A DNA stretch of 26,388 bases from Thainema sp. (GCA_052168235.1 JBQLZK010000033.1:9685-36072); one strand, 5' to 3'. Shown: positions 311 through 21,142, counted from the stretch's first letter. Notes: generated by a model not told the origin, from the sequence alone. Program-made: numbers and translations.

Positions 311-2003
311 CTATCTACTTGAAGCAACAGAAGAACCTGAACTAGCCATTGTTTTTCTCAAACAGTCTGTCAACCAGTACGAGGAAATTCGCGGCGATAT
401 TCAAGGGCTTTCTGCTGAAGATCAGCAAACTTTTACTGACAGCATTTCCTCCACCTACCGCAAACTTGCTGACCTCTTACTTCAACAGAACCGCATCATC
501 GAAGCGCAGCGGGTGCTGGATTTACTGAAGGTGCAAGAACTGGATGAGTATCTAGACGATGTGCAGCGCAATGCCCAAACGGAAACCGGAGTCGAGTTTT
601 GGCAACCGGAAGAAGATGTCCTGGCGCTGTACGACGATGTGCTGCTGGCCGGAACGGAACTGGCCCGACTGCAAGAGCGCGATCGCAATAGCCTCACTCC
701 AGATGAGCAAGCCCGCTTAGCTGAACTCACCGCCCAGCAAGACCGAGTCTACACCAGCTTCATCGACTGGCTCGATCACCCAGATATTATCACCGCCATT
801 GACCAGCTCCGCGAGGCCACCCGCAGCCGCACGGTAGATATCGAAAACTTTACCGACCTGCAAGCCCAACTTGCCCAACTGCCCCAGCGCAGCGTCATTC
901 TCTATCCCCTGGTGTTAGAAAATCGGTTGGAACTGGTGTTGGTTTCTGCCGATGCGCCACCCGTGCGGTATCCAGTGGATGTGGATGCCGTAGAACTGAA
1001 TCGCACTGTAGTTACCTTTGGCCAAGCTCTCAAAGACCGCAATATCGATCCGCGTCCCCTCGCAAAACAGATCTATGACTGGACAATTGCCAATCTAGAA
1101 ACCGACTTAGCAGCAGTGGGCGCAGAAAATATTATCTTCGCTCCCGATGGTGTATTGCGCTATGTGCCCTTGGCCGCACTCTACGATGGTGAGCAGTGGC
1201 TAGCCGAACGGTTCAGCTTCAGTCAAATTACCGCCGCTTCAGAAACCGATTTTGCTGCCCGACCGCGCGATCGCAGAACACTGCTGGCAGCGGCCTGTGC
1301 TGACTGTGCTTTTACCGTAAACATTGGCGACGATGCCTTTAGTTTTGGCAATCTGCCCGCGACACTTCAAGAAGTGGAACTACTAGCTAGTCAAATTCCA
1401 GGGGCCGAGCTGTTGATTAATGGTGAGTTCACCCCAGCGCGATTCAAAGACTTACTGGGCAGTGCAAACTTAATTCATCTGGCCACCCACGGCAAGTTCG
1501 TCTCCGGTAATCCTGATGAGTCGTTCATCTTATTTGGTGATGAACAGTCGGTTAACCTGCGGGAAATGCGGCGGGAATGGTCACAGCTCGATGCCGATTT
1601 GGTCGTCTTGAGCGCCTGCGAAACCGCATTAGGCAGTCCTGAACTGGGCAATGGCATCGAAGTGTTGGGGCTAGGTTTTCAGCTCCAGCGCGTAGGGGCC
1701 AAAGCCGTGATGGCTTCCCTTTGGCAGGTCAGCGACAACGGCACCCAAGCATTGATGGCCGAGTTTTATGATGGGCTAAATCAAGGCATGACCAAAGCCG
1801 AAGCCCTGCAAGCTGCTCAGATGGCAATGATTACTAATCAGCCCAGTGAGAACGCTGGACAAGCAGATCTCTCTGCGATCGCAGATACTGGCTCAGAGGC
1901 TGATGGAACGGTGCGAGCCGTCTCCCTGGCAGCTCAGGAAATGCCGGGATACAGCCATCCTTACTACTGGGCACCGTTTATCCTAATTGGCAACGGTCTG
2001 TAG
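3..2003 (+). CDS. TPR-CHAT domain protease (CHAT-1), 5'-truncated by the window edge
   Basis: The frame is open from position 3 (EALLIAQEIGDRHGEGVTLSNIG...), so the ORF-track start at 72 is not real. Contains 40-aa TPR repeats, CHAT motifs HLATHG and VVLSACETA (His/Cys dyad intact) and the C-terminus HPYYWAPFILIGNGL. Confidence 0.93.
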   Translation, partial: EALLIAQEIGDRHGEGVTLSNIGLIYRKLEQYEQALNTYQDALLIAQEISDRRGEGVTLNNIGAVYKNLGQYEQALNTYQEALLIAQEIGDRHGEGVTLNNIGYLLEATEEPELAIVFLKQSVNQYEEIRGDIQGLSAEDQQTFTDSISSTYRKLADLLLQQNRIIEAQRVLDLLKVQELDEYLDDVQRNAQTETGVEFWQPEEDVLALYDDVLLAGTELARLQERDRNSLTPDEQARLAELTAQQDRVYTSFIDWLDHPDIITAIDQLREATRSRTVDIENFTDLQAQLAQLPQRSVILYPLVLENRLELVLVSADAPPVRYPVDVDAVELNRTVVTFGQALKDRNIDPRPLAKQIYDWTIANLETDLAAVGAENIIFAPDGVLRYVPLAALYDGEQWLAERFSFSQITAASETDFAARPRDRRTLLAAACADCAFTVNIGDDAFSFGNLPATLQEVELLASQIPGAELLINGEFTPARFKDLLGSANLIHLATHGKFVSGNPDESFILFGDEQSVNLREMRREWSQLDADLVVLSACETALGSPELGNGIEVLGLGFQLQRVGAKAVMASLWQVSDNGTQALMAEFYDGLNQGMTKAEALQAAQMAMITNQPSENAGQADLSAIADTGSEADGTVRAVSLAAQEMPGYSHPYYWAPFILIGNGL

Positions 2004-2012
2004 TTCACGCGC

Positions 2013-2660
2013 TTAGTCTAAACCCTGAAGATATTGCTCGAACGCTCTCAGCGCCACGCTGGAGCCTTCTGACCACGCTCGTTCCACATAATCTGGAATC
2101 ATTTGCCTTACCGGGATACCCGGAAATAGCGGACTCTCCTCTCGTTCACCGTACCGCTCTCCATCCAGCACATAAATATGTAGCGTCCGTTCTCGATAAA
2201 CCCAAACCTCCGGCACACCAATATCTTCATAATCTTCAATCTGCGTCAGCGACGTTAAATCAATCTCCAGCGCTAAATCTGGCGGTGGATCGTATTCCAG
2301 ATTCACTCGGTCTTTGCCCAAAACCGCTTGCCGATTTTGAATATAGAAGCACTGATCCGGTTCAATGCCCTTCTGCTGAAACCGCTTCAGCGTAATCGGG
2401 TCAAATCCCTCCCAATCTTGACCTTGATGCCGCAACAGGCACTTCACTAAATCAGCCAGCGTATCCGATCGCTTGCCGTGTCCAGGCAGAGGAGCCATGA
2501 TGCGAATTTCCTCAGTCGTTGCATTAAACGTCACTTTGAGCGCAGCCTTATCCTGACGCAGTTGAAGCAGCGCTTCGTAATCTGCCCAGGTTTGATGGCG
2601 TAGGATCACCTCTCCGCCCGGCGGCAAGTCGATTTCAGTGGGCGTAATCGTTGGCAGCAT
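2013..2660 (-). CDS. Uma2 family (DUF820) endonuclease-fold protein
   Basis: Family motifs TWADYE, IMAPLPGH, EPDQCFYIQN, DPPPDLALEID and GVPEVW; 215 aa; converges on CHAT-1. Confidence 0.9.
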   Translation of the reverse strand: MLPTITPTEIDLPPGGEVILRHQTWADYEALLQLRQDKAALKVTFNATTEEIRIMAPLPGHGKRSDTLADLVKCLLRHQGQDWEGFDPITLKRFQQKGIEPDQCFYIQNRQAVLGKDRVNLEYDPPPDLALEIDLTSLTQIEDYEDIGVPEVWVYRERTLHIYVLDGERYGEREESPLFPGIPVRQMIPDYVERAWSEGSSVALRAFEQYLQGLD

Positions 2661-2727
2661 GGCAACTCATTAAATTTCTGCAAACTTTGGCGTGAATAAG
2701 TTCAGTTTCATCAGACATAGAGAGACA

Positions 2728-2755
2728 GTAGAAACGGTTTACCGTAATTCTACGG
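2728..2755. promoter_or_regulatory. Imperfect palindrome in the divergent Uma2/caspase intergenic region (possible operator)
   Basis: GTAGAA-ACGG-TTTA-CCGT-AA-TTCTAC, overlapping CCGTA-ATTC-TACGG. No function can be assigned from sequence alone. Confidence 0.3.
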
Positions 2756-2782
2756 AATGTTGAACTCCTACTGAATAACACC

Positions 2783-5050
2783 ATGAAGCGTCGCCACTTT
2801 TTGCAATTTGCTGGCTCAACTCTAGCAACAATCGGCCTCAGCCAACTCGACTTTCTGCGACAGGCCAATCAGTATGGCCGCGTCCTTGCCCAGGGTGTAC
2901 CCAACCGAAAACTGGCTCTGCTCGTTGGCATCAACTCCTATGAAGCAGCCGGGACTAGCTCTCTGGGTGGCTGCCTCAATGATGTCGAACTCCAGAGACA
3001 GCTATTGATTCATCGGTTTGGCTTCAATCCTAGCGACATTCTAGAAGTCTCCGACAACAGCAATATCAAACCCACTCGCGACAATATCTTACAGGCATTT
3101 AATGAGCATCTGATTCAGCAAGCCAATCCTGGCGATGTGGTCGTCTTTCACTATTCCGGGCATGGCGATTTAGTGGAAGACGTGAGGGCAATTGACACAG
3201 CAGAATGTCGCCGGACGAAGGATTGTAATCTGAATGGAACGATCGTACCGAATGACTCTATCGCCAGCGACTCTGGTGATGGAATTGTTGTGCCGGATAT
3301 CACAGGTCGCACGTTGTTCCTGCTCATGAGTCAGCTTGAAACAGATAACGTCACCGCTATTCTGGATAGCTGCCACTCTGGAGCAGGCACTCGCGGCAGT
3401 GCGGTTGTGAGAGCAGCGTCTCGGCTTCGCGGTGCAGCAGATGTGCTTTTACCAAGTGAGGCGGAAAAAGAGTATCAAGAACAGTTGATAAACGACTTGA
3501 GGTGGAGCGAAGACGAACTCAATCGTCTCCGCTCCGCAGGTGTCGCCAAAGGAGTTGCAATTGGCTCTGCTCTACGGGATCAGCTTGCAGTCGATGCCCA
3601 ATTTTCTGGATTTAAGGCTGGTGGTTTTACCTATCTGCTCACTCGCTATCTCTGGCAGCAGCCTGTAACGGAGACCAATGCCACCGTTTACAACGACATG
3701 AAACTCAGTACCCGTAGTTTATCCCAGTCCCAACGGGATGCTGATCAAGTACCCATTTTTGAGTATGCGCCCAATAGTAACCATGCTCAACAACCCATGT
3801 ATTTCACACCACTAGTCGGTACTGCAGCGGAAGCGGTGATCACCTCAGCTACCAATGCAGAGCAGATTCAGTTTTGGCTAGGTGGTGTATCCTCGCAAAA
3901 CCTCAATGGTAATGGCATTAGCACGGTTTTCACGGGAATTGGCGACCAAGCTGAGATCCAAATAGAACAAACTGGTCGTCGAGGGCTATATGGCGAAGGC
4001 AGACTGATTGCTGGCTCAATTGATGCTGTCCAGCCTGGAATGCTGCTGCGGGAGCAAGTGATTGGCATTTCACCCAATCCGGTTCTAACAATTGGGCTTG
4101 ATGGCTCTTTGGGGGATGCTGTGCAGCAGGCTGAAAGCGATTTGCAGTCGGTTGGTCGGATTCAAATTGTACCGATAGAGCAATTAACGGATACTGGATA
4201 TATATTTGGTCGCATGACAGAAAGCTATCATCAAGCCTTCAGTGCGGCTGGCGAAACCGATTTGCCGTTCATTAATACTGTCGGTATCTTCACCGCTGAT
4301 CAGCGACCCCTATCAGATACGTTTGGTCGAATTGATGAACCCGTTACAGCTGCAATCAACCGATTAAGGCCAAACTTCAAGTCTCTCCTAGCGAAACAAA
4401 TGTTGGGACAAATCACGACGGGAGAATCCTCGCAGCTTCAGGTTCGCGCTAAGGTATTTAACGCTGATAATCCAAGTCAAGGGGTTGAAGTCGCAACCCG
4501 AAGTGCTCGCAGTGCTGGATCCGCGCATTCAGTAGAAATCCCTCAGTTTGCCTCAGGTACCACACTCAAAGTTGAGGTGGAAAACTTTGAAGATAATGCA
4601 CTGTTTTTGAGTGTGTTGGTGATTGGGGCTGATGGCAGTCTGAATGTGCTCTATCCAGGTGATTGGTCTGCTCCAGAAGAAGCGGCCAGAATTGATGCTC
4701 AGGGTAAAGTCACTGTTCCTCGTCCTCAAGATACAACCCTTTTTCAAGTCCAAGGTTCGGGGGGATTTCCTGAAATCTTGTTGCTGGTGAGCACACAACC
4801 GCTCCGCAATGCGCTGAGGGGAATGCAAACAATTGCCAGAGGACGTGGACAGGAACGGGGCGCAATGGATTTACGAGGCGATGAGCCAGTGACGGTTTTG
4901 GATTTTCTCCTGGGTGATGTGGACGAAACGACTCGTACAACTGCTACTGGCACCATTGCTGCACTCAGTATGGCTGATCAATCAGTTGTCAGTTTTTACG
5001 ATACCAATACACTGGCGACGCTTTCGGCGGTGATTCAGGTGGGGGGATAA
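2783..5050 (+). CDS. Orthocaspase (peptidase C14) with Tat-like signal and C-terminal DUF4384-like domain
   Basis: Twin-arginine start MKRRHFLQF; KLALLVGINSY; GCLNDV; catalytic dyad in FHYSGHG and ILDSCHSG; C-terminal VENFEDNALFLSVLVIGADGSLNVLYP resembles DUF4384. Confidence 0.9.
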   Translation: MKRRHFLQFAGSTLATIGLSQLDFLRQANQYGRVLAQGVPNRKLALLVGINSYEAAGTSSLGGCLNDVELQRQLLIHRFGFNPSDILEVSDNSNIKPTRDNILQAFNEHLIQQANPGDVVVFHYSGHGDLVEDVRAIDTAECRRTKDCNLNGTIVPNDSIASDSGDGIVVPDITGRTLFLLMSQLETDNVTAILDSCHSGAGTRGSAVVRAASRLRGAADVLLPSEAEKEYQEQLINDLRWSEDELNRLRSAGVAKGVAIGSALRDQLAVDAQFSGFKAGGFTYLLTRYLWQQPVTETNATVYNDMKLSTRSLSQSQRDADQVPIFEYAPNSNHAQQPMYFTPLVGTAAEAVITSATNAEQIQFWLGGVSSQNLNGNGISTVFTGIGDQAEIQIEQTGRRGLYGEGRLIAGSIDAVQPGMLLREQVIGISPNPVLTIGLDGSLGDAVQQAESDLQSVGRIQIVPIEQLTDTGYIFGRMTESYHQAFSAAGETDLPFINTVGIFTADQRPLSDTFGRIDEPVTAAINRLRPNFKSLLAKQMLGQITTGESSQLQVRAKVFNADNPSQGVEVATRSARSAGSAHSVEIPQFASGTTLKVEVENFEDNALFLSVLVIGADGSLNVLYPGDWSAPEEAARIDAQGKVTVPRPQDTTLFQVQGSGGFPEILLLVSTQPLRNALRGMQTIARGRGQERGAMDLRGDEPVTVLDFLLGDVDETTRTTATGTIAALSMADQSVVSFYDTNTLATLSAVIQVGG

Positions 5051-5060
5051 GGCGAATTGA

Positions 5061-5276: not shown

Positions 5277-7952
5277 ATGCGCGATCGCAACATTCAACGT
5301 CGCAACTATCAAAATAACGCTTCTATGAAGAACTTCCGCAAAACAGCTTCATTACCGATGCGGGTGCTGATGAGCAGTGCGATCGCGCTGAGTCTTTCGT
5401 CTATACCAATCGATATCCCGCTTTGTGCACCGCAACATAATGCCGCAGCACAGGAAGCTACCATCGTAAATAATCAAGCCGTAGCTGATCACTTACAGCA
5501 CATAGGTCTACGGCAGCTCGAACAGAGCCAATTTCAAACAGCAATACAAATTTTTCAACAAGCACTAGAAATATACGAGCAGACAGAAGACTTGAATGGA
5601 GCAAGTATAGCGCTCAATAACATAGGAGAAGCACATCGCAGAATGGGAAACTACTATCAAGCTTTAGAATTTTACCAACAAGCCTTAGCTATTGAGTTAA
5701 ATGCAGACGGATACGATATCGACAATATATCGACAAGCAACGTTGGCGTAATTTTCAACAATATTGGACTAACTCATTATGAATTCGGCCAATACTCTCA
5801 AGCATTAGTTACTTATGAAAGAGCTTTAGAAGTTGCTCGGAAATTTGAGAATCGAATTGGGGAGGGAATAACCCTTAATAATATTGGGAAAATTTATAAC
5901 AGATGGGGAAAATACTCGCAGGCTTTGACCGCTTATGAAGAAGCTTTAGTAATTGCTCGGGAAGTCGGAAACCGAATTGGAGAGGGAGTAACCCTTAATA
6001 ATATTGGAAAAGTATATGATAACTTAGGAATGCATCATAAATCATTAGATTTCTACCAAAGATCCTTAGCCATTACGCAAGAAACGAATAATATTTCTGG
6101 AGAAAGTACAACTTTCAACAATATTGGTATGGCGTATCAAAACTTAGATCAACACGATCTTGCCTTAAACGCGTATCAGCGATCTCTCAATATTGCTAGG
6201 AATATAGGTGATTCTGTTAGAGAAAGTATAACTCTTAATAATATTGGAGCTTTATATAGCAGTATAGGTGAATATTCCAAAGCTTTAGATATATATCACA
6301 AGATTATTAATGCTAGTCAGCTAGCTAATAATAAACTTGCAGAAGCGGTGGCATCAAATAATGCGGGTTTAGCGTATCAACGTTTAGGAAAACATTCGCT
6401 CGCTCTAAGATTTTATCGAAATTCTTTAAGTATACGAAGAGAAATTGGAGATCGGGGAGGAGAGGCAGTTAGCCTCAACAACTTAGGATTAGTTTTATTA
6501 GAACTTGAACGACTTGCTGAAGCTGAAAACAGGTTAAGTAAGGCTATAAAAATTAATGAATCTCTGCGCACCTCTGATCTTGAAGATGCAGAGTATATTT
6601 TCCTGTTTGATATGCAGGCTAATGCATATTTAACTTTACAAAGAATTGTTATTGCTCAAGATAAGTTTTTATCTGGGCTAGAAATATCGGAAAGAGGGCG
6701 TACTCAAGCTTTTGCTCGGCAAGTTGCTTCTCACCTATTGGATCAGTCAAATCTACCAGCTACTGTTTTTTGGACTTCTGCTGATTCTCTCAATATTTTT
6801 GCTCTTCAGCGTATCGCTCGTCGGCAAAACGCTACCTTGGTTCAGTATTCTATTGCAAAATTAAAAGGATTTGATCCGGTTCTTTATATTTGGACTATTA
6901 AACCTAATGGAGAGATTAACTTTCATGAACAAAATCTTGCTGATTATGACACTGATTTAGCGGAACTTGTTGATCTTAGCCGAGGGGCAATTGGTGCCAG
7001 AGGTCGTAGTTTTGATGGCACAGTTACAGCCACGCTTACTCCAGACGTTCTAGCTGAACAGCAAGCTCAGCAGCGCCAAACGCTGCAAGAGCTATACAAG
7101 CTGCTCATCGAACCCATTGCCGCAGAACTCCCCACTGATCCCAATGAACACGTCATCTTCATCCCTCACCAAGAACTGTTCCTTGTGCCATTTGCAGCAC
7201 TGATGAACGCAGAAGGTGAATATCTGATTGAAAACCACACCATCCGCACCGCGCCGTCGATTCAGGTGTTGGGCTTGACCCATGAACTCGATCAGCAAGC
7301 TGATGACAATGCATCAATGGAAGCTTTGATTGTGGGTAATCCCATCATGCCAGAGGTCTGGAATCCAGCAAGCGGAAGCAAAGAACAGCTTTCTAGCCTC
7401 ACGGGTGCCGAAGACGAAGCGGTAGCCATTGCCGAACTGTTTGATACTCAGCCACTGCTTTGGGATAAGGCATCTGAAGCAACCGTACGGCAGCAGATGC
7501 CTCAGGCGCAGATTATCCATCTAGCAACACACGGCCTGCTGGAATATGGCGATCCACAGGAATCCGGCGTACGAGACTTTCCGGGTGCGATCGCACTAGC
7601 TCCTTCTGGCACGGATGATGGACTACTCACCTCAGCCGAAATTCAGCAGATGGATTTGAATGCTGACCTGGTTGTGCTGAGCGCCTGCGATACAGGGCGA
7701 GGTCGGATTTCGGGTGATGGGGTGATTGGTCTGTCGCGATCGCTAATTACGGCGGGTGTACCCAGTGTGGTTGTGTCGCTCTGGCAAGTCCCTGATCAAC
7801 CAACGGCATTTTTAATGAAAGAGTTTTACCAGAATCTGCAACATACGCCTGACAAAGCTCAAGCACTACGGCAGGCAATGCTGACAACGATGGAAACGCA
7901 TCCTGAACCGATCAACTGGGCAGCTTTTACGCTGATTGGCGAAGCAGAATAG
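5277..7952 (+). CDS. Signal peptide-TPR-CHAT protease (CHAT-2)
   Basis: Hydrophobic leader ending AAA-QE (alternative start ATG 5325); ~9 TPRs; motifs HLATHG, VVLSACDTGRG and WAAFTLIGEAE. Confidence 0.93.
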   Translation: MRDRNIQRRNYQNNASMKNFRKTASLPMRVLMSSAIALSLSSIPIDIPLCAPQHNAAAQEATIVNNQAVADHLQHIGLRQLEQSQFQTAIQIFQQALEIYEQTEDLNGASIALNNIGEAHRRMGNYYQALEFYQQALAIELNADGYDIDNISTSNVGVIFNNIGLTHYEFGQYSQALVTYERALEVARKFENRIGEGITLNNIGKIYNRWGKYSQALTAYEEALVIAREVGNRIGEGVTLNNIGKVYDNLGMHHKSLDFYQRSLAITQETNNISGESTTFNNIGMAYQNLDQHDLALNAYQRSLNIARNIGDSVRESITLNNIGALYSSIGEYSKALDIYHKIINASQLANNKLAEAVASNNAGLAYQRLGKHSLALRFYRNSLSIRREIGDRGGEAVSLNNLGLVLLELERLAEAENRLSKAIKINESLRTSDLEDAEYIFLFDMQANAYLTLQRIVIAQDKFLSGLEISERGRTQAFARQVASHLLDQSNLPATVFWTSADSLNIFALQRIARRQNATLVQYSIAKLKGFDPVLYIWTIKPNGEINFHEQNLADYDTDLAELVDLSRGAIGARGRSFDGTVTATLTPDVLAEQQAQQRQTLQELYKLLIEPIAAELPTDPNEHVIFIPHQELFLVPFAALMNAEGEYLIENHTIRTAPSIQVLGLTHELDQQADDNASMEALIVGNPIMPEVWNPASGSKEQLSSLTGAEDEAVAIAELFDTQPLLWDKASEATVRQQMPQAQIIHLATHGLLEYGDPQESGVRDFPGAIALAPSGTDDGLLTSAEIQQMDLNADLVVLSACDTGRGRISGDGVIGLSRSLITAGVPSVVVSLWQVPDQPTAFLMKEFYQNLQHTPDKAQALRQAMLTTMETHPEPINWAAFTLIGEAE

Positions 7953-7991
7953 TACTCGATGCGGCGGGCTTTTAATGCTGGAGCAAAACCT

Positions 7992-10724: not shown

Positions 10725-10810
10725 TTTCCCAAAGATTCTCTAACGCTGAATAAGTGGGGATGAGTCAGAGCTATATGCTGACGTTAACCTCTAAAATTTG
10801 GCTTCTGGTT

Positions 10811-13732: not shown

Positions 13733-13742
13733 ATCTCTAACT

Positions 13743-14372
13743 ATGCGTCGAGATCAGGTGATTACACTACTCAAAGCCCGTCAGCCTCAGCTTGCAGAGT
13801 TTGGTGTTCAGTCTCTGGCGCTGTTTGGTTCAGTCGCACGCGATGAAGCCAAGCCCGATAGCGATGTCGATCTGCTGGTTGAGTTTTCTCGCCCGATTGA
13901 TTTATTTGCATTAGTCCGGCTGCAGACTTACTTAGAAGACGTTTTGCACTGTGCCGTCGATCTCGGTACGCTGGATAGCCTAAAACCACAACTACGTCCT
14001 TTGGTTGAACAAGACATTATTCTGATCATGACGCCGCGAGATTGGAAACTGAGAGTGCAGGATATTCTGCAAGCGATCGCAGAAATTCAAACCTTTACGG
14101 CTGGGATGACGTTTGAGGAATTCCAGGCGGATATCAAGACGATCCGAGCCGTGATTGCAGACATCACCATCCTCGATGAAGCCGCAAACAGCATCTCAGC
14201 AGACGTGCAAGCCCAATATCCTGAGATTCCCTGGACTGAAATGCGAGGCATTCGCAACATTGTGGTGCATGAATATTTTCAGGTTCAGCTTGATGTCCTG
14301 TGGCGCACGATTCAAGACAGCTTGCCGCCGTTAGTGCCTCAACTACAAGCGATGTTAGAGCAAGCTGAATAA
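13743..14372 (+). CDS. In-frame fused MNT (MntA-like nucleotidyltransferase) and HEPN (DUF86/HepT-like RNase) toxin-antitoxin protein
   Basis: The GSx10DxD motif (GSVARDEAKPDSDVD) and the Rx4HxY motif (RNIVVHEY) are in one frame. An internal ATG at 14028 (MTPRDW) marks where a HEPN gene would normally start. Confidence 0.88.
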   Translation: MRRDQVITLLKARQPQLAEFGVQSLALFGSVARDEAKPDSDVDLLVEFSRPIDLFALVRLQTYLEDVLHCAVDLGTLDSLKPQLRPLVEQDIILIMTPRDWKLRVQDILQAIAEIQTFTAGMTFEEFQADIKTIRAVIADITILDEAANSISADVQAQYPEIPWTEMRGIRNIVVHEYFQVQLDVLWRTIQDSLPPLVPQLQAMLEQAE

Positions 14373-14378: not shown

Positions 14379-14420
14379 ACTCCTCAGACAGATATCTCTC
14401 TGAAGCCCATCCTGAGGAGT
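14379..14420 (+). promoter_or_regulatory. Inverted repeat covering the RBS of the S8 gene, plus an overlapping 20-bp palindrome
   Basis: ACTCCTCAG (14379-14387) is the reverse complement of CTGAGGAGT (14412-14420), which contains GAGGAG. TCAGACAGATATCTCTCTGA (14384-14403) is palindromic with one mismatched pair. Confidence 0.45.
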
Positions 14421-14428
14421 TGAATTCT

Positions 14429-16597
14429 ATGAAACGCTTCGTCTCTAGCCTAGTATTGACTGGTCTGCTTTGGGGAGCTGCTGACTGTCCCTATCTGTCT
14501 TCCATACCAGCCGCTCAAGCTCAGGTTCCCACATCATCGGATGACCTCTACTACTACTTCTACAATCAGCGCATTCCGCTCAATCTGCAAGCCAATCAAA
14601 TTGCGGTTGCCTTCAAACCTGCTGCGACTAATACTCGCGATCCAGGTGACCTACCGTATCTGCAACTGCAACGTGCGCTCCAGGGTGAACCCAGCAGCAA
14701 TACCCGCAGCACTCGCTCGGCAACGACTACCCCGCTTAACGTCCAGGTACAGCCTCTCGGTAGCCAGTATGCGCTAATTGAGTTCACTGACAACACCCGC
14801 AGCACTCGCGCTGCCGTGCAGGAGCGTCTACAGCAGCCCTATGTGGAAACCACACTACCCGTGCTGACTCGACCGGATAGCGACGACACGATTTTGCTGC
14901 CGAATGAGATAGTGCTGAGCTTGGAGCCCAACTTGTCGGAGAGTCAGAAGCAGCTATTGCTGGTTCGCTACGATCTGGAGATTGTTCGATCTCTACGCTT
15001 CAGTCGCGATCGCTATTTAGTTCGTTCCAAAACTGCCACAGGGACAGACGTTTTAGCAGTGGCGAATCAGCTGAATGGAGCAGTTGGTATTCAGTCAGCC
15101 ACCCCCAACTTTGTCCAGTCCATTCCTTATCGCACAGTGACCGATTTACGAGAGATGGTAGCAGCGGATGTTCCTGATGCTCAGGGGCTACTGGATACCC
15201 TACTCGCTACTCTGCCGCCAGTACAGGACTCACCGTTTCTTTCCAATTTACTGCCGCTCCAATGGCATCTGGATAGTACCCCACAGCGGGGACAATTGCT
15301 GCCGCGAACCGATATTCAAGCGGTGGAGGCTTGGCAGAACAGCAATGATGGTGAAGGCGCAGTCGTGGCCGTGATTGATAGCCTGATCCAGTGGGATCAT
15401 CCGGATTTAGCCGCCAATGTCTATGCGGTCGATGAGGGGAGTGAAGCGCTACCGGGTGAAGTGCATGGCTGGGACTTCTCCAACCCGCAGGTGAGCTGTG
15501 ATGCGGCGGATGTTTGTGTGGCAGGCGACCCAGATACGCGAATTAGTCCGGCGGAGTTAGCGATTCTGCGACCTCATTTTCAGAATACGTTTCAGCTCTC
15601 AGATGCGGAACTGTTGCAGGAATATGAATCGCTGGCACAACGGATTGCCCGCTCCAACTCTGACCTGACTCAGCCGCAGATTGCGCGAATTCTACGGAAC
15701 TGGCTGCGGGGTCAGATTGCCGCTGAGTTTCATGGCACTTGGTCAGCCGGAGTGATTGGCGCACAGGCAACTGATGAGATGGGCGTGATGGGTGTGGCTC
15801 CCAAGGCACAGATTTTGCCGATTCGGGTGTTTGGTCTGGGTGGTGAAATTAGCTCGGCAGCGCTGATTGAAGCGGTGGGCTATGCGGCAGAGCGGGATGT
15901 GGATGTGATCAATATGAGTCTGGGCGGACTGCTGCCGGATCGGGAACTGACGGATCAGATCTTTGCCATTCTGGATCAGCATCCGGATCTGGTGATTATT
16001 GCCTCGGCAGGAAATGATAATCTCGACGGCGTGGCATTCCCAGCGGCGATTCCGGGTGTGGTGTCGGTGGGGGCAACGAATCTGAGCGGCAATCGCACAG
16101 GGTACAGCAGCTATGGAGCCAGTTTGGATCTGGTGGCTCCGGGTGGAGAAACAGCGCTAACTCGCAGCGGTGGCATCCTGACGACGGGCGGCACCTGGGT
16201 GCCGGGTTTCTGGCAGGGAGTGACGCCGCCGGACTATGCCTGGGGTGTGGCGCTGGATCCGGCGGGGGAATATGTGCAGGTGCAGGGTACGTCGTTTTCG
16301 GCTCCGACAGTGTCGGGGGTGGTGGCGCTGATGAAGGGGGAGAATCCGGAGTTGGCGCGGGAGCGAGTGGTCGAAATCCTCCAGGCGACGGCCAGCTATG
16401 AGGGACTCCAGATGACGCAGGCGGATGCCAATCGCTATCGGCTACAGGCGGAGGTGGGCTTTGGCACGGCCCTGAATTTTCCGGTGCTGCGTCCGTCGGG
16501 GATTTTCACGCCAGCGGAACCCGTGTCGGCGGAGCAGTATTTCTTTGGCAGCGGTTTGGTGAATGCAGCAGCGGCAGTAGAGGCTGCAAAGCGATAG
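14429..16597 (+). CDS. Secreted S8 subtilisin-like serine protease with long N-terminal prodomain
   Basis: GAGGAG RBS before ATG 14429; signal peptide ending AQA-Q; catalytic triad in VAVIDS, FHGTWSAG and GTSFSAP; oxyanion motif SAGND. Confidence 0.93.
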   Translation: MKRFVSSLVLTGLLWGAADCPYLSSIPAAQAQVPTSSDDLYYYFYNQRIPLNLQANQIAVAFKPAATNTRDPGDLPYLQLQRALQGEPSSNTRSTRSATTTPLNVQVQPLGSQYALIEFTDNTRSTRAAVQERLQQPYVETTLPVLTRPDSDDTILLPNEIVLSLEPNLSESQKQLLLVRYDLEIVRSLRFSRDRYLVRSKTATGTDVLAVANQLNGAVGIQSATPNFVQSIPYRTVTDLREMVAADVPDAQGLLDTLLATLPPVQDSPFLSNLLPLQWHLDSTPQRGQLLPRTDIQAVEAWQNSNDGEGAVVAVIDSLIQWDHPDLAANVYAVDEGSEALPGEVHGWDFSNPQVSCDAADVCVAGDPDTRISPAELAILRPHFQNTFQLSDAELLQEYESLAQRIARSNSDLTQPQIARILRNWLRGQIAAEFHGTWSAGVIGAQATDEMGVMGVAPKAQILPIRVFGLGGEISSAALIEAVGYAAERDVDVINMSLGGLLPDRELTDQIFAILDQHPDLVIIASAGNDNLDGVAFPAAIPGVVSVGATNLSGNRTGYSSYGASLDLVAPGGETALTRSGGILTTGGTWVPGFWQGVTPPDYAWGVALDPAGEYVQVQGTSFSAPTVSGVVALMKGENPELARERVVEILQATASYEGLQMTQADANRYRLQAEVGFGTALNFPVLRPSGIFTPAEPVSAEQYFFGSGLVNAAAAVEAAKR

Positions 16598-16792: not shown

Positions 16793-19700
16793 ATGCGGAT
16801 TACTGATTGGATCAAGTGTGGGTTGGCTGTGGTGCTGTTAAGTGGAATGGGAGAAGTACCAGTAAGGGCGGAAGAAGAGCCAGTAGTAGTGGTGCAGGCG
16901 ACGGAGGAGGAGAGTGCAGCAGGTGAAGCGCAGGGACGAGTGATTTTAGAGGTTGAGGGAAGGTTGGATGAGAATAGTGGTGTTATGAACAACGGCAGTT
17001 ACTTCAACGTACATACATTTGAAGGTCAGGCAAGGGAGCAAATCACCCTTGAGTTAGTTGATGCAGACTTTGATGTAGTTATAGGACTTCTTGCTGCTGA
17101 TAACGAAATACTGGCTCATACGAGTAGTTTAGACTCGCAGATAGATGTTGAGCTACCTCTTGATGGAACGTACGCTATCGTAGTCACCTCGATGCAACTA
17201 CAAAGTGCAGGAACATATCATTTGCGACTGCATAAAGATGTTATAGATCAGGAAAATGTGATAGATGGATCACAAAATAGATTGTTTTCTGAAGTCGAGG
17301 AGAATGGTTATTTTATTGAAGAGAATAGAGATTATTATGATGCTCCATTATTTGATGAGTCAACTGGGGAGCCAATACTTATCGAATTATCTAAAGATGA
17401 ATTGAATCAGTATCTAACACAGCTATTTGTTACTAATAAAACTAACAGTTATAGCGAAAGTATTTTGAACAATATTGAAGAGAATAGAGATTATTATGAT
17501 GTTCCATTATTTGATGAGTCAACTGGGGAGCCAATACTTATCGAATTATCTAAAGATGAATTGAATCAGTATCTAACACAGCTATTTATTACTGACCCAA
17601 CTGACAATATAGATGCTTCAGTTGACGATCAGGAAAGAGCCTTGACAGAAGCTGCGCAACTTAATCAGCAGGCAAAGGAGTTGTTTGAAGCAAGACGTTA
17701 TGAGGAGGCCGCATTACTTTATGAGCAAGTATTGGCAATTTATCGACAGATATTGGGAGAAGACCATCAGAGTGTTGCTCAAGGCCTAGACAATTTAGCA
17801 CTATTATATGTTGCTCTAGGCCTCTACGAGAAAGCTGAATATCTCTATGAAAAAGTGGTAGAAATACAGCGGCAAATATTGGGAGAGATTCACCTTGATT
17901 TGGCAGTCAGTCTCAACAAATTAGCAGCACTTTATAAAGCTCAAGGACGATATGAAGCAGCCGAACTGCTTTATCAACAATCACTAAACATTGAGCTACA
18001 AGACATAGGAGAGCAACATCTCAACCTTACGAGTAGCTTCAAAAGGTTGGCAGCGCTTTATCAAGCTCGAGGACGATATGAAGCAGCCGAACTGCTTTAT
18101 CAACAATCACTAAACATTGAGCTACAAGTCCTAGGAGAGGAGCATCCTACTGTGGCAGCTAGCCTCATTAATTTAGCAGCACTTTATGTATATCAAGGAC
18201 GATACGAAGAAGCAGAGCCGCTCTATCAGCAATCGTTAGACATCAATCAACAAGTTTTCGGTGAACAACATCTTGGTGTGGCAGTTGGCCTCATTAATTT
18301 AGCAGCACTTTATCGAGACCAAGGACGATATGTAGCAGCCGAGACGCTCTATCAGCAATCGCTAGACATCCTTCAAGATCTAGGAGAGCAACATCCTATT
18401 GTGGCAGCTAGTCTCAATAATTTAGCCGCGCTTTATCAAGACCAAGGACGATATGAAGAAGCTGAACTTCTCTATCAGCAATCGCTAGACATTCGTCAAC
18501 AAGTCTTCGGTGAGCAACATCCTACTGTGGCAACTAGCCTCAATAACTTAGCAATGCTTTATGACTCCCAAGGACGATATGAAGAAGCTGAACTTCTCTA
18601 TCAGCAGTCGCTAGACATTCGTCAACAAGTCTTCGGTAAGCAACATCCGGATGTGGCAACCAGCCTCAATAATTTAGCTGGACTTTATCATACTCAAGGA
18701 CGATATGAAGCAGCGGAATCGCTCTATCAACAATCGCTAGATATTCTTCAGTCAGTCCTAGGAGAGCAGCATCCTACTGTGGCAGCTAGCCTCAATAATT
18801 TAGCTGGGCTTTATCATACTCAAGGGCGGTATAGAGAAATCGAGCTGCTTTATCAACAATCGCTAGACATTCGTCAACAAGTCTTCGGTGAGCAACATCC
18901 TACTGTGGCAGCTAGTCTCAATAATTTAGCCGCGCTTTATCAAGACCAAGGACGATATGAAGAGGCCGAGCCGCTCTTTTTGCAATCGCTAGACATCTTT
19001 CAACAAGCTTTGGGAGACAAGCATCCGGATGTGGCAGCTAGTCTCAATAATTTGGCAGGGCTTTATCAAGCTCAAGGGCGGTATGAAGCAGCCGAGCCCC
19101 TCTATCAACAATCGCTAAACATTCGTCAACAAGCCCTGGGAGAACAACATCCGGGTGTGGCAGATAGCCTCAACAATTTAGCCAGGCTTTATCAAGCTCA
19201 AGAGCGGTATGAAGAGGCCGAGCTGCTCTTTTTACAGTCACTAGACATCAGTAAACAAGTTTTCGGTGAACAACATCCAGATGTGGCAGGTGCCCTCAAT
19301 AATTTAGCAGTCTTTGACTGGGCACAAAACAATCTCATCTCTGCGTCAGACTTCTTGAGTCAAGGATTAGGCATTGAAGAAACTAATATATCAAACAATC
19401 TAGTTGTTGGTTCTGAACAACAGCGACAAGACTACATCGCCACAATCTCAGCAACAACTGATGCAACCCTTTCCCTCAACCTCCAATCCGCCCCCACCAA
19501 CCCCCAAGCCTCCCATCTCGCTCTCGAAACCCTGCTCCGCCGTAAAGGCCGCATCCTCGATGCCACAACCAACAGCTTCCAAACCCTGCGCCAGCAGCTC
19601 GATGCCGATAGCCAAGCCTTGCTAGAACAGTATCTCTCAACCCAATCGCAACTCTCCGCCCTCCTCTTCCGGGGCCTCGGCAATCTCACTCCCGACGCCT

Positions 19701-21142
19701 ATCGTCAGCGCGTCGCCGACCTCAAATCCGAAGCCAACCAGCTCGAAGTCCAGCTCTCCCGCCGCAGTGCCGAATTCCGCGCCGAAACCCAACCTATTAC
19801 TCTCGAAGCCGTCCAGGCCGAAATTCCAGCCGATGCCGTTCTGGTCGAATATGCCCTGTACGAACCCTTCAACCCTCGCGCCACCGCCCAAGCTGAGCGA
19901 TGGGGTGAACCCCGCTATGCCGCCTACATCCTCACCACCCAAGGCACCATTCACGCCATCGACATCGGTGAAGCCGCACCCATTGACCAGCTCGCCGCCG
20001 AATTCCGTCGTGCCCTCCAAGTACAAGATGCCCGCATTCAGCAGTTTGCCCGCGACCTTGATGCCGTCCTTATGCAGCCCATCCGCGACCAAATCGGCAA
20101 CGCCCAGCACATCCTGCTCTCCCCCGACGGCCAGCTCAACCTTATTCCCTTCGCCGCCCTAGTAGACGAGCAGAACCGCTACCTCGTCGAAACCCACCAA
20201 ATCACCTACCTCACCTCCGGTCGCGACCTGCTGCGCCTGCAAACCCAAACCGCCAGCCAACAGCCCCCCGTTCTCCTGGCCAATCCCAACTACGACAGCG
20301 CTGATCCCTCCGTTCAAGTCGCTGCCCTGGCACCCAGTTCAACCGTTGATCCTGATCGAGGCGACAACCGCCGCTCTGATGATCTAGCCACTCTGACATT
20401 TGGCTCCCTCCCCGGCACCGCCGTAGAAGCCGACGCGATTATTGCTCAGCTCGCTGAAGATGAAGAATACAAAGACAACGACATCATTCTCCTCACCGAA
20501 GCCAGCGCCACCGAAAACGCTGTCAAACAGGTGCGAAGTCCCCAGATTCTCCACATCGCCACCCACGGCTTCTTCATGGAGGACATTCCGCTCGTTGCCA
20601 ATGCCGATACCAACAGCGCCTTTGGCTTCTCCAGTCGCGGCGATACCGGTACGATCACAGCCATCTCCACGGCTCCCATCGCACCCCGCCAGCCCACTGT
20701 CAATCTCGAAAATCCGCTGCTGCGCTCTGGCCTTGCTCTGGCTGGCTTCAACCCCCGCCAAAGCGGCAGCGAAGACGGCGTCCTTACCGCTCTAGAAGCC
20801 TCCAGCCTTGACCTGCGCGGCACCCAACTCGTCGTCCTCTCCGCTTGCGAAACTGGCGTTGGCGATGTGGCCAACGGTGAAGGTGTTTATGGTCTACGTC
20901 GCGCCTTCGTGATCGCCGGGGCCGAAAGCCAGCTCACCAGCCTCTGGAAAGTTTCCGACCAAGGCACCGCCGACCTGATGACCGACTACTATCAGCGCCT
21001 ACTCAACGGTGAAGGTCGCAGCGCTGCCCTGCGGCAAACCCAACTGGAGCTGCTTTCCAGCTCAGCCTATCGGCATCCCTACTACTGGGCTGCTTTCATC
21101 CCCTCCGGCAACTGGCGACCGCTGCGTACCGGAACCGAATAA
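16793..21142 (+). CDS. Signal peptide-PPC-TPR-CHAT protease (CHAT-5)
   Basis: Leader ending VRA-EE; PPC-like domain (HTFEGQAREQITLEL...LPLDGTYAIVVTS); 13 kinesin-light-chain-type 42-aa TPRs; motifs HIATHG, VVLSACETG and HPYYWAAF. Confidence 0.93.
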   Translation: MRITDWIKCGLAVVLLSGMGEVPVRAEEEPVVVVQATEEESAAGEAQGRVILEVEGRLDENSGVMNNGSYFNVHTFEGQAREQITLELVDADFDVVIGLLAADNEILAHTSSLDSQIDVELPLDGTYAIVVTSMQLQSAGTYHLRLHKDVIDQENVIDGSQNRLFSEVEENGYFIEENRDYYDAPLFDESTGEPILIELSKDELNQYLTQLFVTNKTNSYSESILNNIEENRDYYDVPLFDESTGEPILIELSKDELNQYLTQLFITDPTDNIDASVDDQERALTEAAQLNQQAKELFEARRYEEAALLYEQVLAIYRQILGEDHQSVAQGLDNLALLYVALGLYEKAEYLYEKVVEIQRQILGEIHLDLAVSLNKLAALYKAQGRYEAAELLYQQSLNIELQDIGEQHLNLTSSFKRLAALYQARGRYEAAELLYQQSLNIELQVLGEEHPTVAASLINLAALYVYQGRYEEAEPLYQQSLDINQQVFGEQHLGVAVGLINLAALYRDQGRYVAAETLYQQSLDILQDLGEQHPIVAASLNNLAALYQDQGRYEEAELLYQQSLDIRQQVFGEQHPTVATSLNNLAMLYDSQGRYEEAELLYQQSLDIRQQVFGKQHPDVATSLNNLAGLYHTQGRYEAAESLYQQSLDILQSVLGEQHPTVAASLNNLAGLYHTQGRYREIELLYQQSLDIRQQVFGEQHPTVAASLNNLAALYQDQGRYEEAEPLFLQSLDIFQQALGDKHPDVAASLNNLAGLYQAQGRYEAAEPLYQQSLNIRQQALGEQHPGVADSLNNLARLYQAQERYEEAELLFLQSLDISKQVFGEQHPDVAGALNNLAVFDWAQNNLISASDFLSQGLGIEETNISNNLVVGSEQQRQDYIATISATTDATLSLNLQSAPTNPQASHLALETLLRRKGRILDATTNSFQTLRQQLDADSQALLEQYLSTQSQLSALLFRGLGNLTPDAYRQRVADLKSEANQLEVQLSRRSAEFRAETQPITLEAVQAEIPADAVLVEYALYEPFNPRATAQAERWGEPRYAAYILTTQGTIHAIDIGEAAPIDQLAAEFRRALQVQDARIQQFARDLDAVLMQPIRDQIGNAQHILLSPDGQLNLIPFAALVDEQNRYLVETHQITYLTSGRDLLRLQTQTASQQPPVLLANPNYDSADPSVQVAALAPSSTVDPDRGDNRRSDDLATLTFGSLPGTAVEADAIIAQLAEDEEYKDNDIILLTEASATENAVKQVRSPQILHIATHGFFMEDIPLVANADTNSAFGFSSRGDTGTITAISTAPIAPRQPTVNLENPLLRSGLALAGFNPRQSGSEDGVLTALEASSLDLRGTQLVVLSACETGVGDVANGEGVYGLRRAFVIAGAESQLTSLWKVSDQGTADLMTDYYQRLLNGEGRSAALRQTQLELLSSSAYRHPYYWAAFIPSGNWRPLRTGTE
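17314..17593 (+). repeat. 121-bp direct duplication (159-bp period) inside CHAT-5
   Basis: 17314-17434 versus 17473-17593, with 2 mismatches seen; encodes IEENRDYYD[A/V]PLFDESTGEPILIELSKDELNQYLTQLF[V/I]T. Confidence 0.95.
17756..19370 (+). repeat. ~13 tandem 126-bp TPR-coding units
   Basis: Recurring GEQHPxVAxSLNNLAxLYxxQGRYEEAExLYQQSL; one unit is one codon shorter. Boundaries are approximate. Confidence 0.9.

What the first reader, a model, noticed from the sequence alone, without database searches (positions are those of the whole stretch)
1902..20665. Shared R-x2-3-[DT]GT[VI]xA[VILT] peptide in six neighbouring clan CD proteases, placed in four different positions
Seen: CHAT-3 RRDDGTVVAV (10554-10583), CHAT-4 RRDDGTVIAV (13610-13639), CHAT-2 RSFDGTVTAT (7005-7034), CHAT-5 RGDTGTITAI (20636-20665), orthocaspase RTTATGTIAAL (4934-4966) and CHAT-1 SEADGTVRAV (DGT at 1902). 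The motif lies in the loop before HPYYW (CHAT-1, -3, -4), in an N-terminal CHAT loop (CHAT-2), just after the catalytic His (CHAT-5) and after DUF4384 (caspase). Simple paralogy therefore does not explain it. Known: characterised cyanobacterial orthocaspases cut after Arg, and SAVED-CHAT activates PCaspase by cleavage in a type III CRISPR system. Inference: this is a locus-specific substrate or docking code, for example cleavage after Arg exposing a common beta-strand neo-N-terminus that wires the proteases into one cascade. I do not know of a description of this motif.
Basis: partly seen in the sequence, partly recalled or inferred. Interest (0 to 1): 0.88.

Follow-up and report, generated by a model that had tools for sequence, protein, structure and literature searches.

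The report
Shared loop peptide in clustered proteases
Several secreted caspase-like proteases encoded side by side in a cyanobacterium carry a similar short peptide on flexible surface loops at different places in the fold, and other cyanobacterial clusters share their own versions, which suggests a private recognition or cleavage tag that links the enzymes of one cluster.

Summary
All six peptides are at the stated coordinates. Three of them (CHAT-1, -3, -4) sit in one homologous insertion, so they are plain paralogy. The orthocaspase match is no better than chance (278 of 1000 shuffles). The real question is therefore three loops, in CHAT-3/4, CHAT-2 and CHAT-5.

In AlphaFold models the CHAT-2 and CHAT-5 peptides lie in low-confidence coil. 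Each loop belongs to a large cyanobacterial TPR-CHAT subfamily. In each subfamily the loop nearly always holds Arg-Gly/Ser, but the residues after it vary.

Those later residues tend to match between different subfamilies encoded on the same contig. In 18 other contigs or loci the mean best 7-mer score was 20.2, against a null of 15.8 ± 0.7 (0 of 10000 permutations). Control segments of the same proteins show no excess.

So the "locus-specific code" idea is partly supported and extends beyond this window. The Arg itself is family-wide, about half of the clusters show nothing, and neither cleavage nor binding was tested. I found no published description.

The parts
3..2003 (+). CHAT-1, a TPR-CHAT protease (5' end runs off the window). 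It is subfamily A, with an insertion before HPYYW.
   Evidence: Pfam CHAT E 3.7e-65 plus TPR. Aligned with CHAT-3/4.
1893..1922 (+). Peptide SEADGTVRAV in the CHAT-1 C-terminal insertion. It has no Arg.
2783..5050 (+). Orthocaspase (Peptidase_C14 plus DUF4384) with a twin-arginine signal and an intact His/Cys dyad.
   Evidence: Pfam C14 E 2.5e-18 and DUF4384 E 8.1e-10. R3 R4 F6 L7 Q8, H127 and C197 are nearly invariant in 81 sequences.
4934..4966 (+). Peptide RTTATGTIAAL in the variable C-terminal tail of the orthocaspase. Only the Arg is typical of the family, and the match to the CHAT peptides is at chance level.
5277..7952 (+). CHAT-2, a TPR-CHAT protease of subfamily B.
   Evidence: Pfam CHAT E 1.4e-73. 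The model of residues 470-891 matches Craspase TPR-CHAT, DdvA and separase.
7005..7034 (+). Peptide RSFDGTVTAT in a coil between two helices upstream of the CHAT core.
   Evidence: It is model residues 108-117. The 10-residue pLDDT blocks are 66 and 64, and residues 111-114 are below 50. The family consensus is SRxAIGVRGRxxAT...
7959..10676 (+). CHAT-3, a TPR-CHAT protease of subfamily A.
   Evidence: Pfam CHAT E 3.9e-61. 5296 database relatives at E<=0.001.
10554..10583 (+). Peptide RRDDGTVVAV in the insertion before HPYYW. Its first Arg codon is the end of a HIP1 palindrome.
10754..13732 (+). CHAT-4, a TPR-CHAT protease of subfamily A and a close paralogue of CHAT-3 at the C-terminus.
   Evidence: Pfam CHAT E 2.6e-62..
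13610..13639 (+). Peptide RRDDGTVIAV, in the same columns as in CHAT-3.
14420..16597 (+). S8 subtilase with an N-terminal hydrophobic leader. It is a recurrent member of such clusters.
   Evidence: Pfam Peptidase_S8 E 8.5e-46. S8 genes of similar size are present in 4 of 14 other multi-protease loci examined.
16793..21142 (+). CHAT-5, a long TPR-CHAT protease of subfamily C.
   Evidence: Pfam CHAT E 6.2e-86. Model of residues 1000-1449.
20636..20665 (+). Peptide RGDTGTITAI inside a coil of about 40 residues directly after the catalytic His.
   Evidence: It is model residues 283-292, within segment 267-306 where pLDDT is below 50. Family loops are listed.
22422..24815 (-). Pentapeptide-repeat protein with a weak C-terminal CHAT match. 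It is a seventh clan CD protein and lacks the peptide.
   Evidence: Pfam Pentapeptide E 7.9e-31 and CHAT E 2.6e-9. No pattern hit.

Best explanation
The peptide is a short linear motif displayed on flexible surface loops of co-encoded, probably exported, TPR-CHAT proteases. It has two layers.

The first layer is a family-wide Arg followed by Gly or Ser. This is the kind of P1-P1' pair that Arg-specific clan CD proteases accept.

The second layer is the next 5-8 beta-prone residues. They differ between genomes but tend to be the same in the different CHAT subfamilies of one gene cluster, although each subfamily carries them in a different loop.

My reading, which is inferred and not shown, is that this is a cluster-private recognition site for limited proteolysis, by self-cleavage or cleavage between partners. 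A protease of the cluster would cut after the Arg. The downstream residues would supply prime-side or exosite recognition, so that activation stays within one cluster.

Shown: the location in loops, the family-wide Arg-Gly/Ser, the sharing between co-located genes, and the multi-protease make-up of the clusters. Inferred: export, cleavage, and which enzyme cuts.
For: 1. Loop location. The CHAT-2 peptide is coil with pLDDT 64-66, and below 50 at DGTV. The CHAT-5 peptide is inside a 40-residue stretch with pLDDT below 50, right after the catalytic His.

2. Family-wide Arg-Gly/Ser in the corresponding loop: subfamily A 103 of 119, B 99 of 105, C 90 of 112, orthocaspase tail 85 of 112. R106 of the CHAT-2 fragment is conserved in at least 90% of 120 sequences.

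3. Sharing between co-located genes. In 16 contigs holding two or more subfamilies, the mean best 7-mer score between loops is 22.2, against a null of 16.0 ± 0.8 (0 of 20000). Without the window and its nearest relative the figures are 21.4 against 15.9 (0 of 20000). With three related contigs collapsed to one, 0-1 of 20000 reach the observed value. Adding 4 DNA-verified loci gives 18 units at 20.2 against 15.8 ± 0.7 (0 of 10000). Examples are RGGFELV/RGGFELV (A and B), PATIVPE/PATIVPE (B and C) and RNNDATI/RSNDATI (B and C).

4. Specificity. Three control segments of the same proteins show no excess (624, 1714 and 4328 of 5000). In one organism, the C paralogue on the same contig as B shares the variant (score 31), while the C paralogue on another contig does not (score 17).

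5. Cluster make-up. B-type CHAT and the orthocaspase are co-located in 12 of 76 loci. S8 subtilase is present in 4, and trypsin-like peptidases in 3, of the 14 multi-protease loci examined.

6. Literature. Orthocaspases cleave after basic residues (PMC6426788, abstract start seen). Separase cuts after Arg, and a periplasmic TPR-CHAT is proposed to cut a flexible linker in trans (PMC11506125, passages).

7. The codons of the peptide differ among CHAT-1, -2, -3 and -5, so the likeness is at protein level and is not a recent DNA copy.
Against:
- The co-varying residues lie after the Arg, whereas clan CD proteases are known mainly for non-prime-side specificity (my own knowledge).
- Sharing is patchy. 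7 of 16 contigs have no pair in the top 2% of the background. In 4 loci fetched as DNA, none of the 6 cross-family pairs reached the top 5%.
- "Same contig" for the protein sets rests on equal contig lengths in the search tables. I could verify this only for the window itself.
- Independent strong events outside the window lineage number only about four.
- The orthocaspase peptide of the window is at chance level. B-orthocaspase sharing across 11 loci is weak (18.9 against 16.8 ± 1.0; 138 of 5000).
- The loop of subfamily A was not modelled.
- With look-elsewhere over whole proteins, the window alone is not significant.
Confidence: 0.4

Rival explanations
1. The peptide is a docking strand, not a cleavage site. 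The beta-prone segment would pair with a groove or sheet edge of a common partner: another CHAT of the cluster, a TPR array, DUF4384 or the subtilase. The proteins of one cluster would then assemble, and the partner and the strands would co-evolve. The Arg-Gly would be a structural hinge.
For: The co-varying residues are an alternating hydrophobic or beta-branched stretch in disordered loops, as is typical of motifs that order on binding. A periplasmic TPR-CHAT is a dimer (PMC11506125, passages). Co-encoded adaptor modules that match each other are known in bacterial conflict systems (PMC7159879, passages).
Against: No partner has been identified and no complex could be predicted. Pairing does not require identical sequences in different proteins. 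This reading leaves the near-universal Arg-Gly/Ser unexplained.
Confidence: 0.22
2. The resemblance has no common function. Each subfamily has its own variable, Arg-containing surface loop for its own reasons. The resemblance in this window, and in some other clusters, would be chance helped by similar composition (Arg, Gly, Thr, Ile, Val).
For: The pattern was fitted after the fact. Shuffled whole proteins often give equally good blocks (52 of 60 by star score). The caspase match is at chance level. Many clusters show no sharing. The core [AGS]T[IV]x[IVLA] is only 3.0-fold (C) and 1.1-fold (orthocaspase tail) enriched in the loop over the rest of the protein.
Against: Contig-level permutations reject independence even without the window lineage (0 of 20000; 0 of 10000). 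Control segments show nothing. Identical 7-mers such as RGGFELV and PATIVPE in non-homologous loops are not a composition effect. The window triple is reached by 50 of 19,964 random triples.
Confidence: 0.2
3. DNA-level copying. Short patches would have been transferred between paralogues of a cluster by non-allelic conversion or templated repair, or the same small mobile insert would have landed in insertion-tolerant loops. Sharing would then reflect mutation rather than selection.
For: Sharing is confined to co-located genes, which is where conversion is most frequent. The loops tolerate length variation.
Against: In the window the shared residues use different codons in CHAT-1, -2, -3 and -5. 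The positions are not homologous, so ordinary conversion cannot act. The exact pattern is absent from 267,497 aa of other loci, so no dispersed repeat is evident. The DNA of the other sharing contigs was not available to me.
Confidence: 0.1

Closest known systems
Activation or linker cleavage sites of caspase-family zymogens (caspase intersubunit linker, type II metacaspase linker, orthocaspase autoprocessing after Arg; recalled, plus the PMC6426788 abstract start)
   Same: An exposed flexible loop in a clan CD protease that carries a basic residue followed by a small residue. In CHAT-5 it lies next to the catalytic His.
   Different: Here the loop sits at three or four different places in different subfamilies. 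The residues after the Arg are shared among co-encoded paralogues and differ between clusters. No cleavage is shown.
SAVED-CHAT to PCaspase proteolytic cascade of type III-B CRISPR-Cas (bioRxiv 10.1101/2023.06.23.546230; title, abstract start and two passages seen)
   Same: A CHAT protease and a caspase-like protease are encoded together and act in series. The fold is related (8tl0_C was found by the CHAT-2 model, E 1.3e-5).
   Different: None of the window's 11 ORFs has a SAVED domain or is a cas gene. The proteins here have TPR arrays and N-terminal export signals. There are five CHATs rather than one.
DdvA, a periplasmic TPR-CHAT anti-sigma factor of Myxococcus (PMC11506125; passages read)
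   Same: An extracytoplasmic TPR-CHAT with the same fold (8rot_A, E 3.1e-12). A flexible linker near the catalytic dyad is proposed to be cut in trans by the partner protomer.
   Different: DdvA is a single membrane-anchored regulator. No peptide shared among several paralogues is described there. Its cleavage site is not defined.
Effector-associated domains (EADs) of bacterial conflict systems (PMC7159879; passages read)
   Same: The same small module occurs in proteins encoded by adjacent genes, and copies in adjacent genes are closest to each other. They are proposed to couple components of one system.
   Different: EADs are folded domains at protein termini in cytoplasmic NTPase systems. 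Here the shared element is 7-10 residues in internal disordered loops of exported proteases.
Separase recognition motif (S/D/E)xExxR (as cited in PMC11506125)
   Same: A CHAT-fold protease that cuts after Arg in an unstructured stretch. Separase structures were found by the CHAT-2 model (5fby_A, E 2.6e-11).
   Different: In separase the specificity lies before the Arg. Here the shared residues follow it.

Membership tests
CHAT domain proteases (Pfam PF12770, clan CD) | Profile match above the curated cut-off | tested here: met
   CHAT-1 to CHAT-5 score 207-289 bits against a cut-off of 24.
CHAT domain proteases (Pfam PF12770, clan CD) | Catalytic His and Cys in the HxxTHG and SAC motifs | tested here: met
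   The Cys column is invariant in all five. The His motif is present in the four whose fragment covers it; the CHAT-1 fragment in A5 starts after it. CHAT-1 reads HLATHG. The residues are invariant across 120 (B) and 82 (C) homologues.
CHAT domain proteases (Pfam PF12770, clan CD) | Separase/Craspase-like fold | tested here: met
   The CHAT-2 model matches 7y84_C (E 2e-13), 8eex_B, 8rot_A and 5fby_A. The other four were not searched.
CHAT domain proteases (Pfam PF12770, clan CD) | Peptidase activity and P1 preference | not testable with these tools
   Needs enzyme assays.
Orthocaspases (Peptidase_C14, prokaryotic) | p20-like domain with a His-Cys dyad | tested here: met
   Pfam C14 at 67.1 bits against a cut-off of 21.4. 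H127 and C197 are conserved in at least 90% of 81 sequences.
Orthocaspases (Peptidase_C14, prokaryotic) | Cleavage after Arg/Lys | not testable with these tools
   Known for characterised members (PMC6426788 abstract start). Not tested for this protein.
Zymogen activation or processing site | Located in an exposed, flexible loop | tested here: met
   Met for CHAT-2 and CHAT-5. The loops of subfamily A and of the caspase tail were not modelled.
Zymogen activation or processing site | Conserved P1 residue that fits the protease class | tested here: met
   Arg-Gly/Ser is present in 85-99 of 105-119 loops per family.
Zymogen activation or processing site | The bond is cut in the mature protein | not testable with these tools
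   Needs N-terminomics or mass spectrometry.
EAD-type homotypic adaptors (PMC7159879) | The same module in proteins of adjacent genes, with adjacent copies closest to each other | tested here: met
   Searches show the excess for co-located genes. One search shows no excess for paralogues on other contigs.
EAD-type homotypic adaptors (PMC7159879) | A small folded, non-enzymatic domain at the N- or C-terminus | tested here: not met
   The element is 7-10 residues inside internal low-confidence loops.
SAVED-CHAT/PCaspase CRISPR-associated cascade | SAVED sensor domain and type III CRISPR-Cas genes in the locus | tested here: not met
   No SAVED or Cas family was found among the 11 ORFs of the window.

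The most novel reading that the evidence does not exclude
Cyanobacterial gene clusters that encode several exported TPR-CHAT proteases, often with an orthocaspase and a subtilase, each carry a private peptide tag. The tag is an Arg-Gly/Ser followed by a cluster-specific beta-prone heptad, and different paralogues show it on different disordered loops. The tag co-evolves across non-homologous positions. It insulates a proteolytic activation circuit, or an assembly, so that only enzymes of the same cluster act on one another.
Probability: 0.3. Interest if true: 0.85.

Novelty: new variant of a known kind. Interest (0 to 1): 0.7.

Why it matters
TPR-CHAT proteins are among the most expanded protein families in filamentous cyanobacteria. 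Each of three searches returned thousands of relatives (5296, 6832 and 7565 at E<=0.001). Their substrates and regulation are unknown.

A conserved Arg-Gly/Ser on a flexible loop, followed by residues that match among co-encoded paralogues, gives a concrete and testable candidate for where these enzymes are processed or docked. It also suggests how many paralogous proteases in one cell could be kept from cross-talk.

If it holds, this would be a bacterial example of substrate-code insulation in a protease network. It would also give handles for working out the function of the clusters: an Arg mutant and a loop swap.

Tried and rejected
Nothing can be said about binding.
- PDB search by sequence with CHAT-3 residues 471-905: 0 hits at E<=0.001.
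- Rfam on the whole window: 0 matches.
- Recent DNA copying of the motif: the codons differ.
- Same organism name but different contig: 10 pairs, with the fraction of background partners scoring at least as high between 0.11 and 0.99, so no clear excess.
- Cross-family pairs in loci fetched as DNA (L002, L008, L022, L045): 6 pairs, the best at fraction 0.057-0.059.
- Whole-protein motif discovery against shuffles: not significant by star score.
- Calcium-binding (EF-hand-like) reading of DRRDDGTVVAVN: by eye it lacks the acidic residues at the canonical positions. I did not pursue it (recalled consensus, no call).
- SEA-type self-cleavage (Gly-Ser/Thr followed by hydrophobic residues; recalled): several sharing variants, such as RGGFELV and RGDIDIV, have no Ser/Thr, so I rejected it as a general reading.
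- Literature searches found no description of a shared loop peptide in cyanobacterial TPR-CHAT proteins.
The source organism's whole proteome was not available, so the proposed proteome-wide scan was replaced by the 725,000-residue background.

Full report
**What is in the window**

The window encodes the following on the plus strand:
- five TPR-CHAT proteins: CHAT-1 at 3-2003 (5' end open), CHAT-2 at 5277-7952, CHAT-3 at 7959-10676, CHAT-4 at 10754-13732 and CHAT-5 at 16793-21142;
- an orthocaspase with DUF4384 (2783-5050);
- an S8 subtilase (14420-16597);
- a fused nucleotidyltransferase/HepT gene (13716-14372).

On the minus strand it encodes a Uma2 endonuclease (2013-2660), a pentapeptide-repeat protein with a weak CHAT match (22422-24815) and a HEAT-repeat protein (24990-26387).

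The HIP1 palindrome GCGATCGC occurs 22 times against 0.39 expected. The nearest relatives are all cyanobacterial.

The orthocaspase family starts with a nearly invariant RRxFLQ twin-arginine motif. By eye, the CHATs and the subtilase start with a basic-then-hydrophobic leader. I therefore read the cluster as exported proteases. This is an inference, because no signal-peptide predictor was available.

**The observation**

The fitted core [DT]GT[VI]xA[VILT] occurs once in each of the six proteins and in none of the other five proteins of 200 aa or more.

It is absent from 267,497 residues of ORFs from 76 other cyanobacterial loci and from 150 orthocaspase representatives. Among 360 CHAT homologues it occurs only in the window's own proteins and in two proteins of the nearest relative contig.

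Three qualifications apply.
- CHAT-1, -3 and -4 carry the peptide in the same alignment columns of one insertion. They count as one instance, not three.
- CHAT-1 has no Arg.
- A seventh clan CD protein in the window lacks the peptide.

**Is the window alone beyond chance?**

With CHAT-3 as a fixed seed:

| Target | 7-mer: shuffles reaching the match | 10-mer: shuffles reaching the match |
|---|---|---|
| Orthocaspase | 278 of 1000 | 709 of 1000 |
| CHAT-2 | 3 of 1000 | 11 of 1000 |
| CHAT-5 | 78 of 1000 | 4 of 1000 |

When every 7-mer of CHAT-3 may act as seed, 52 of 60 shuffled protein sets give a block with as good a star score, and 4 of 60 give as good a sum-of-pairs score. The evidence inside the window is therefore marginal once the choice of motif is paid for, and the caspase instance is at chance level.

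**What the loops are**

Each position belongs to a very large cyanobacterial subfamily.

- Subfamily A (CHAT-1/3/4) has an insertion of about 25-30 residues before HPYYW. Its consensus is ..ALITGDYxALGxQRGxxVxxRxxxxLPxxVSxRLSHPYYWAPFILIGNGL.
- Subfamily B (CHAT-2) has SRxAIGVRGRxxATxxxxxxP.. about 25-40 residues before LHQLLIEPI.
- Subfamily C (CHAT-5) has a loop of about 40 residues between the catalytic HIATHGFF and NPLLRSGL. It usually holds [ST]RG followed by an alternating hydrophobic stretch.
- The orthocaspase family has a conserved LLGDLDxx[ST]R[SG], followed by a variable linker.

Arg-Gly/Ser is present in the loop in 103 of 119 (A), 99 of 105 (B), 90 of 112 (C) and 85 of 112 (orthocaspase tail) proteins.

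The DGT/TGT part is not conserved. The exact core is found in 2 of 120, 2 of 120, 1 of 120 and 0 of 150 proteins.

The looser core [AGS]T[IV]x[IVLA] is present in the loop as follows:

| Family | Proteins with the core in the loop | Enrichment over the rest of the protein |
|---|---|---|
| A | 11 of 119 | 10.7-fold |
| B | 32 of 105 | 36.8-fold |
| C | 6 of 112 | 3.0-fold |
| Orthocaspase tail | 5 of 112 | 1.1-fold |

So the Arg is a family feature, not a locus feature.

**Structure**

The model of CHAT-2 residues 470-891 has pLDDT 84.9 and pTM 0.86. Its peptide is residues 108-117, which are coil between helices 92-102 and 120-141. The 10-residue pLDDT blocks are 66 and 64, and residues 111-114 fall below 50.

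The model of CHAT-5 residues 1000-1449 has pLDDT 81.7 and pTM 0.84. Its peptide is residues 283-292, inside segment 267-306 where pLDDT is below 50. That segment comes directly after the catalytic His.

The CHAT-2 model matches Craspase TPR-CHAT/Csx29, DdvA, separase, gingipain R and SAVED-CHAT.

The peptide is therefore on flexible loops and not on core strands, at least at two of the four positions.

**The decisive test: do other clusters share their own variant?**

The tables give the length of the longest contig for each protein. The window's three proteins all show 76,557, which is the one case I can verify.

For each such pair I took the best ungapped 7-mer BLOSUM62 score between the two family loops. 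I compared it with all cross-family pairs:

| Pair type | Pairs | Observed mean | Background mean | Random sets reaching the observed mean |
|---|---|---|---|---|
| A-B | 8 | 20.5 | 15.8 | 5 of 20000 |
| B-C | 10 | 24.3 | 15.8 | 0 of 20000 |
| A-C | 7 | 17.4 | 15.7 | 2113 of 20000 |

Taking contigs as units:

| Set | Observed | Null | Permutations reaching it |
|---|---|---|---|
| 16 contigs | 22.2 | 16.0 ± 0.8 | 0 of 20000 |
| 14 contigs, without the window and its nearest relative | 21.4 | 15.9 | 0 of 20000 |
| As above, three related contigs collapsed to one | (not listed here) | (not listed here) | 0-1 of 20000 |
| 18 units, adding four DNA-verified loci | 20.2 | 15.8 ± 0.7 | 0 of 10000 |

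Examples of shared variants are RGGFELV in both an A and a B loop, PA[AT]IVPE in B and C loops of three contigs, RNNDATI/RSNDATI in B and C, and GSDRGDI/GATRGDI in B and C. The window's relative has DGTVVAV in both A and B.

Three control segments of the same proteins show no excess (624, 1714 and 4328 of 5000).

Pairs from the same named organism but on different contigs show no clear excess (10 pairs). In one organism, the C paralogue on the same contig as B shares the variant (score 31), while the C paralogue on another contig does not (score 17).

Restricted to these three loops, the window's own triple scores 23.0 against 15.8 ± 2.0 (50 of 19,964).

**Results against the reading**

- 7 of the 16 contigs have no pair in the top 2% of the background.
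- In the four loci fetched as DNA that hold two subfamilies, none of the 6 pairs reached the top 5%.
- B-type CHAT and the orthocaspase are co-located in 12 of 76 loci. Loop-tail similarity within 11 loci is only weakly raised (18.9 against 16.8 ± 1.0; 138 of 5000), and the window's own pair scores 17.
- Strong independent events outside the window lineage number about four.
- The permutation tests treat contigs as independent, which related genomes are not.

**How it most likely works**

The facts to explain are these:
- a flexible loop;
- a near-universal Arg-Gly/Ser;
- 5-8 beta-prone residues after it that match among co-located paralogues although they sit in different loops;
- different codons for the shared residues;
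- clusters rich in proteases: CHATs, orthocaspase, and S8 in 4 and trypsin-like in 3 of the 14 loci examined.

Orthocaspases cut after basic residues (PMC6426788, abstract start). Separase, a CHAT-fold enzyme, cuts after Arg. A periplasmic TPR-CHAT is proposed to cut a flexible linker in trans (PMC11506125, passages).

I therefore favour a cluster-private processing site, cut after the Arg, with the following residues giving recognition (confidence 0.4).

The rivals are a non-cleaved docking strand (0.22), chance plus family-typical loops (0.20) and DNA-level copying (0.10).

Nothing here shows cleavage or binding.

**Comparison with what is known, and novelty**

The proteins are ordinary members of the CHAT and orthocaspase families.

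The locus is not a SAVED-CHAT/PCaspase CRISPR system. It has no SAVED domain and no cas genes.

The nearest concept is the coupling of co-encoded proteins by matching adaptor modules (EADs, PMC7159879). Those are folded terminal domains, so that defining feature is not met here.

The nearest mechanism is zymogen linker cleavage in caspase-family enzymes. Here the site moves between loops and its flanking residues are cluster-specific.

Searches found no description of such a shared loop peptide. I rate it a new variant of a known kind, with interest 0.7.

Noticed in passing
window 10549-10556, 13605-13612, 1875-1882 (and 19 other sites): The cyanobacterial HIP1 palindrome GCGATCGC occurs 22 times against 0.39 expected. 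In CHAT-1 it encodes A-I-A 20 bases upstream.
   Followed up: partly
window 2783-2850; alignment A6: The orthocaspase/DUF4384 family begins with a nearly invariant KRRHFLQF twin-arginine motif (R3 R4 F6 L7 Q8 in at least 90% of 81 sequences). This points to Tat export of a caspase homologue.
   Followed up: partly
loci L001, L008, L009, L011, L022, L028, L033, L034, L037, L039, L040, L053: B-type TPR-CHAT and the orthocaspase/DUF4384 gene are co-located in 12 of 76 loci, mostly as adjacent genes on the same strand. An S8 subtilase of about 735-780 aa recurs in L001, L009, L037 and L045, and trypsin-like peptidases in L008, L022 and L045.
   Followed up: partly
window 10754-13732 (CHAT-4), about residues 100-500: The TPR array of CHAT-4 consists of about nine nearly identical 40-residue units (..GNYPTALDYYEQSLVI[TK]REIGDRA.EA.TL..IGIVNQLL..). 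This suggests recent repeat expansion.
   Followed up: no
window 16793-21142 (CHAT-5), about residues 170-265: The N-terminal region of CHAT-5 holds a tandem duplication of about 50 residues (IEENRDYYD.PLFDESTGEPILIELSKDELNQYLTQLF.T) upstream of the TPR array. No Pfam family matched it.
   Followed up: no
window 13716-14372: One ORF fuses a nucleotidyltransferase domain with a HepT-like RNase domain, whereas the two parts of MNT/HEPN toxin-antitoxin pairs are usually separate. It overlaps the end of CHAT-4 by 17 bases.
   Followed up: no
window 22422-24815 (minus strand): A protein with N-terminal and central pentapeptide repeats, hydrophobic (probably membrane) segments and a weak C-terminal CHAT match (HFCGHG / LNACYS). 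It is a seventh clan CD protein, without TPR and without the peptide.
   Followed up: partly
loci L053:2983-5388, L040:750-3284, L034:14839-16329, L053:1979-2965, L034:13861-14808: CHAT-CHASE2 fusion proteins occur in L053 and L040. In L053 the fusion follows a DUF1822 gene. L034 has DUF1822 next to a CHAT protein cut short by the locus end. This is a different CHAT architecture in the same neighbourhoods.
   Followed up: no
window about 15030-15050 (S8 residues 204-208) and 4943-4957: The S8 subtilase N-terminal region holds TATGT, the same pentapeptide as in the orthocaspase tail (KTATGTDVLAV against TTATGTIAAL). It is probably chance.
   Followed up: no
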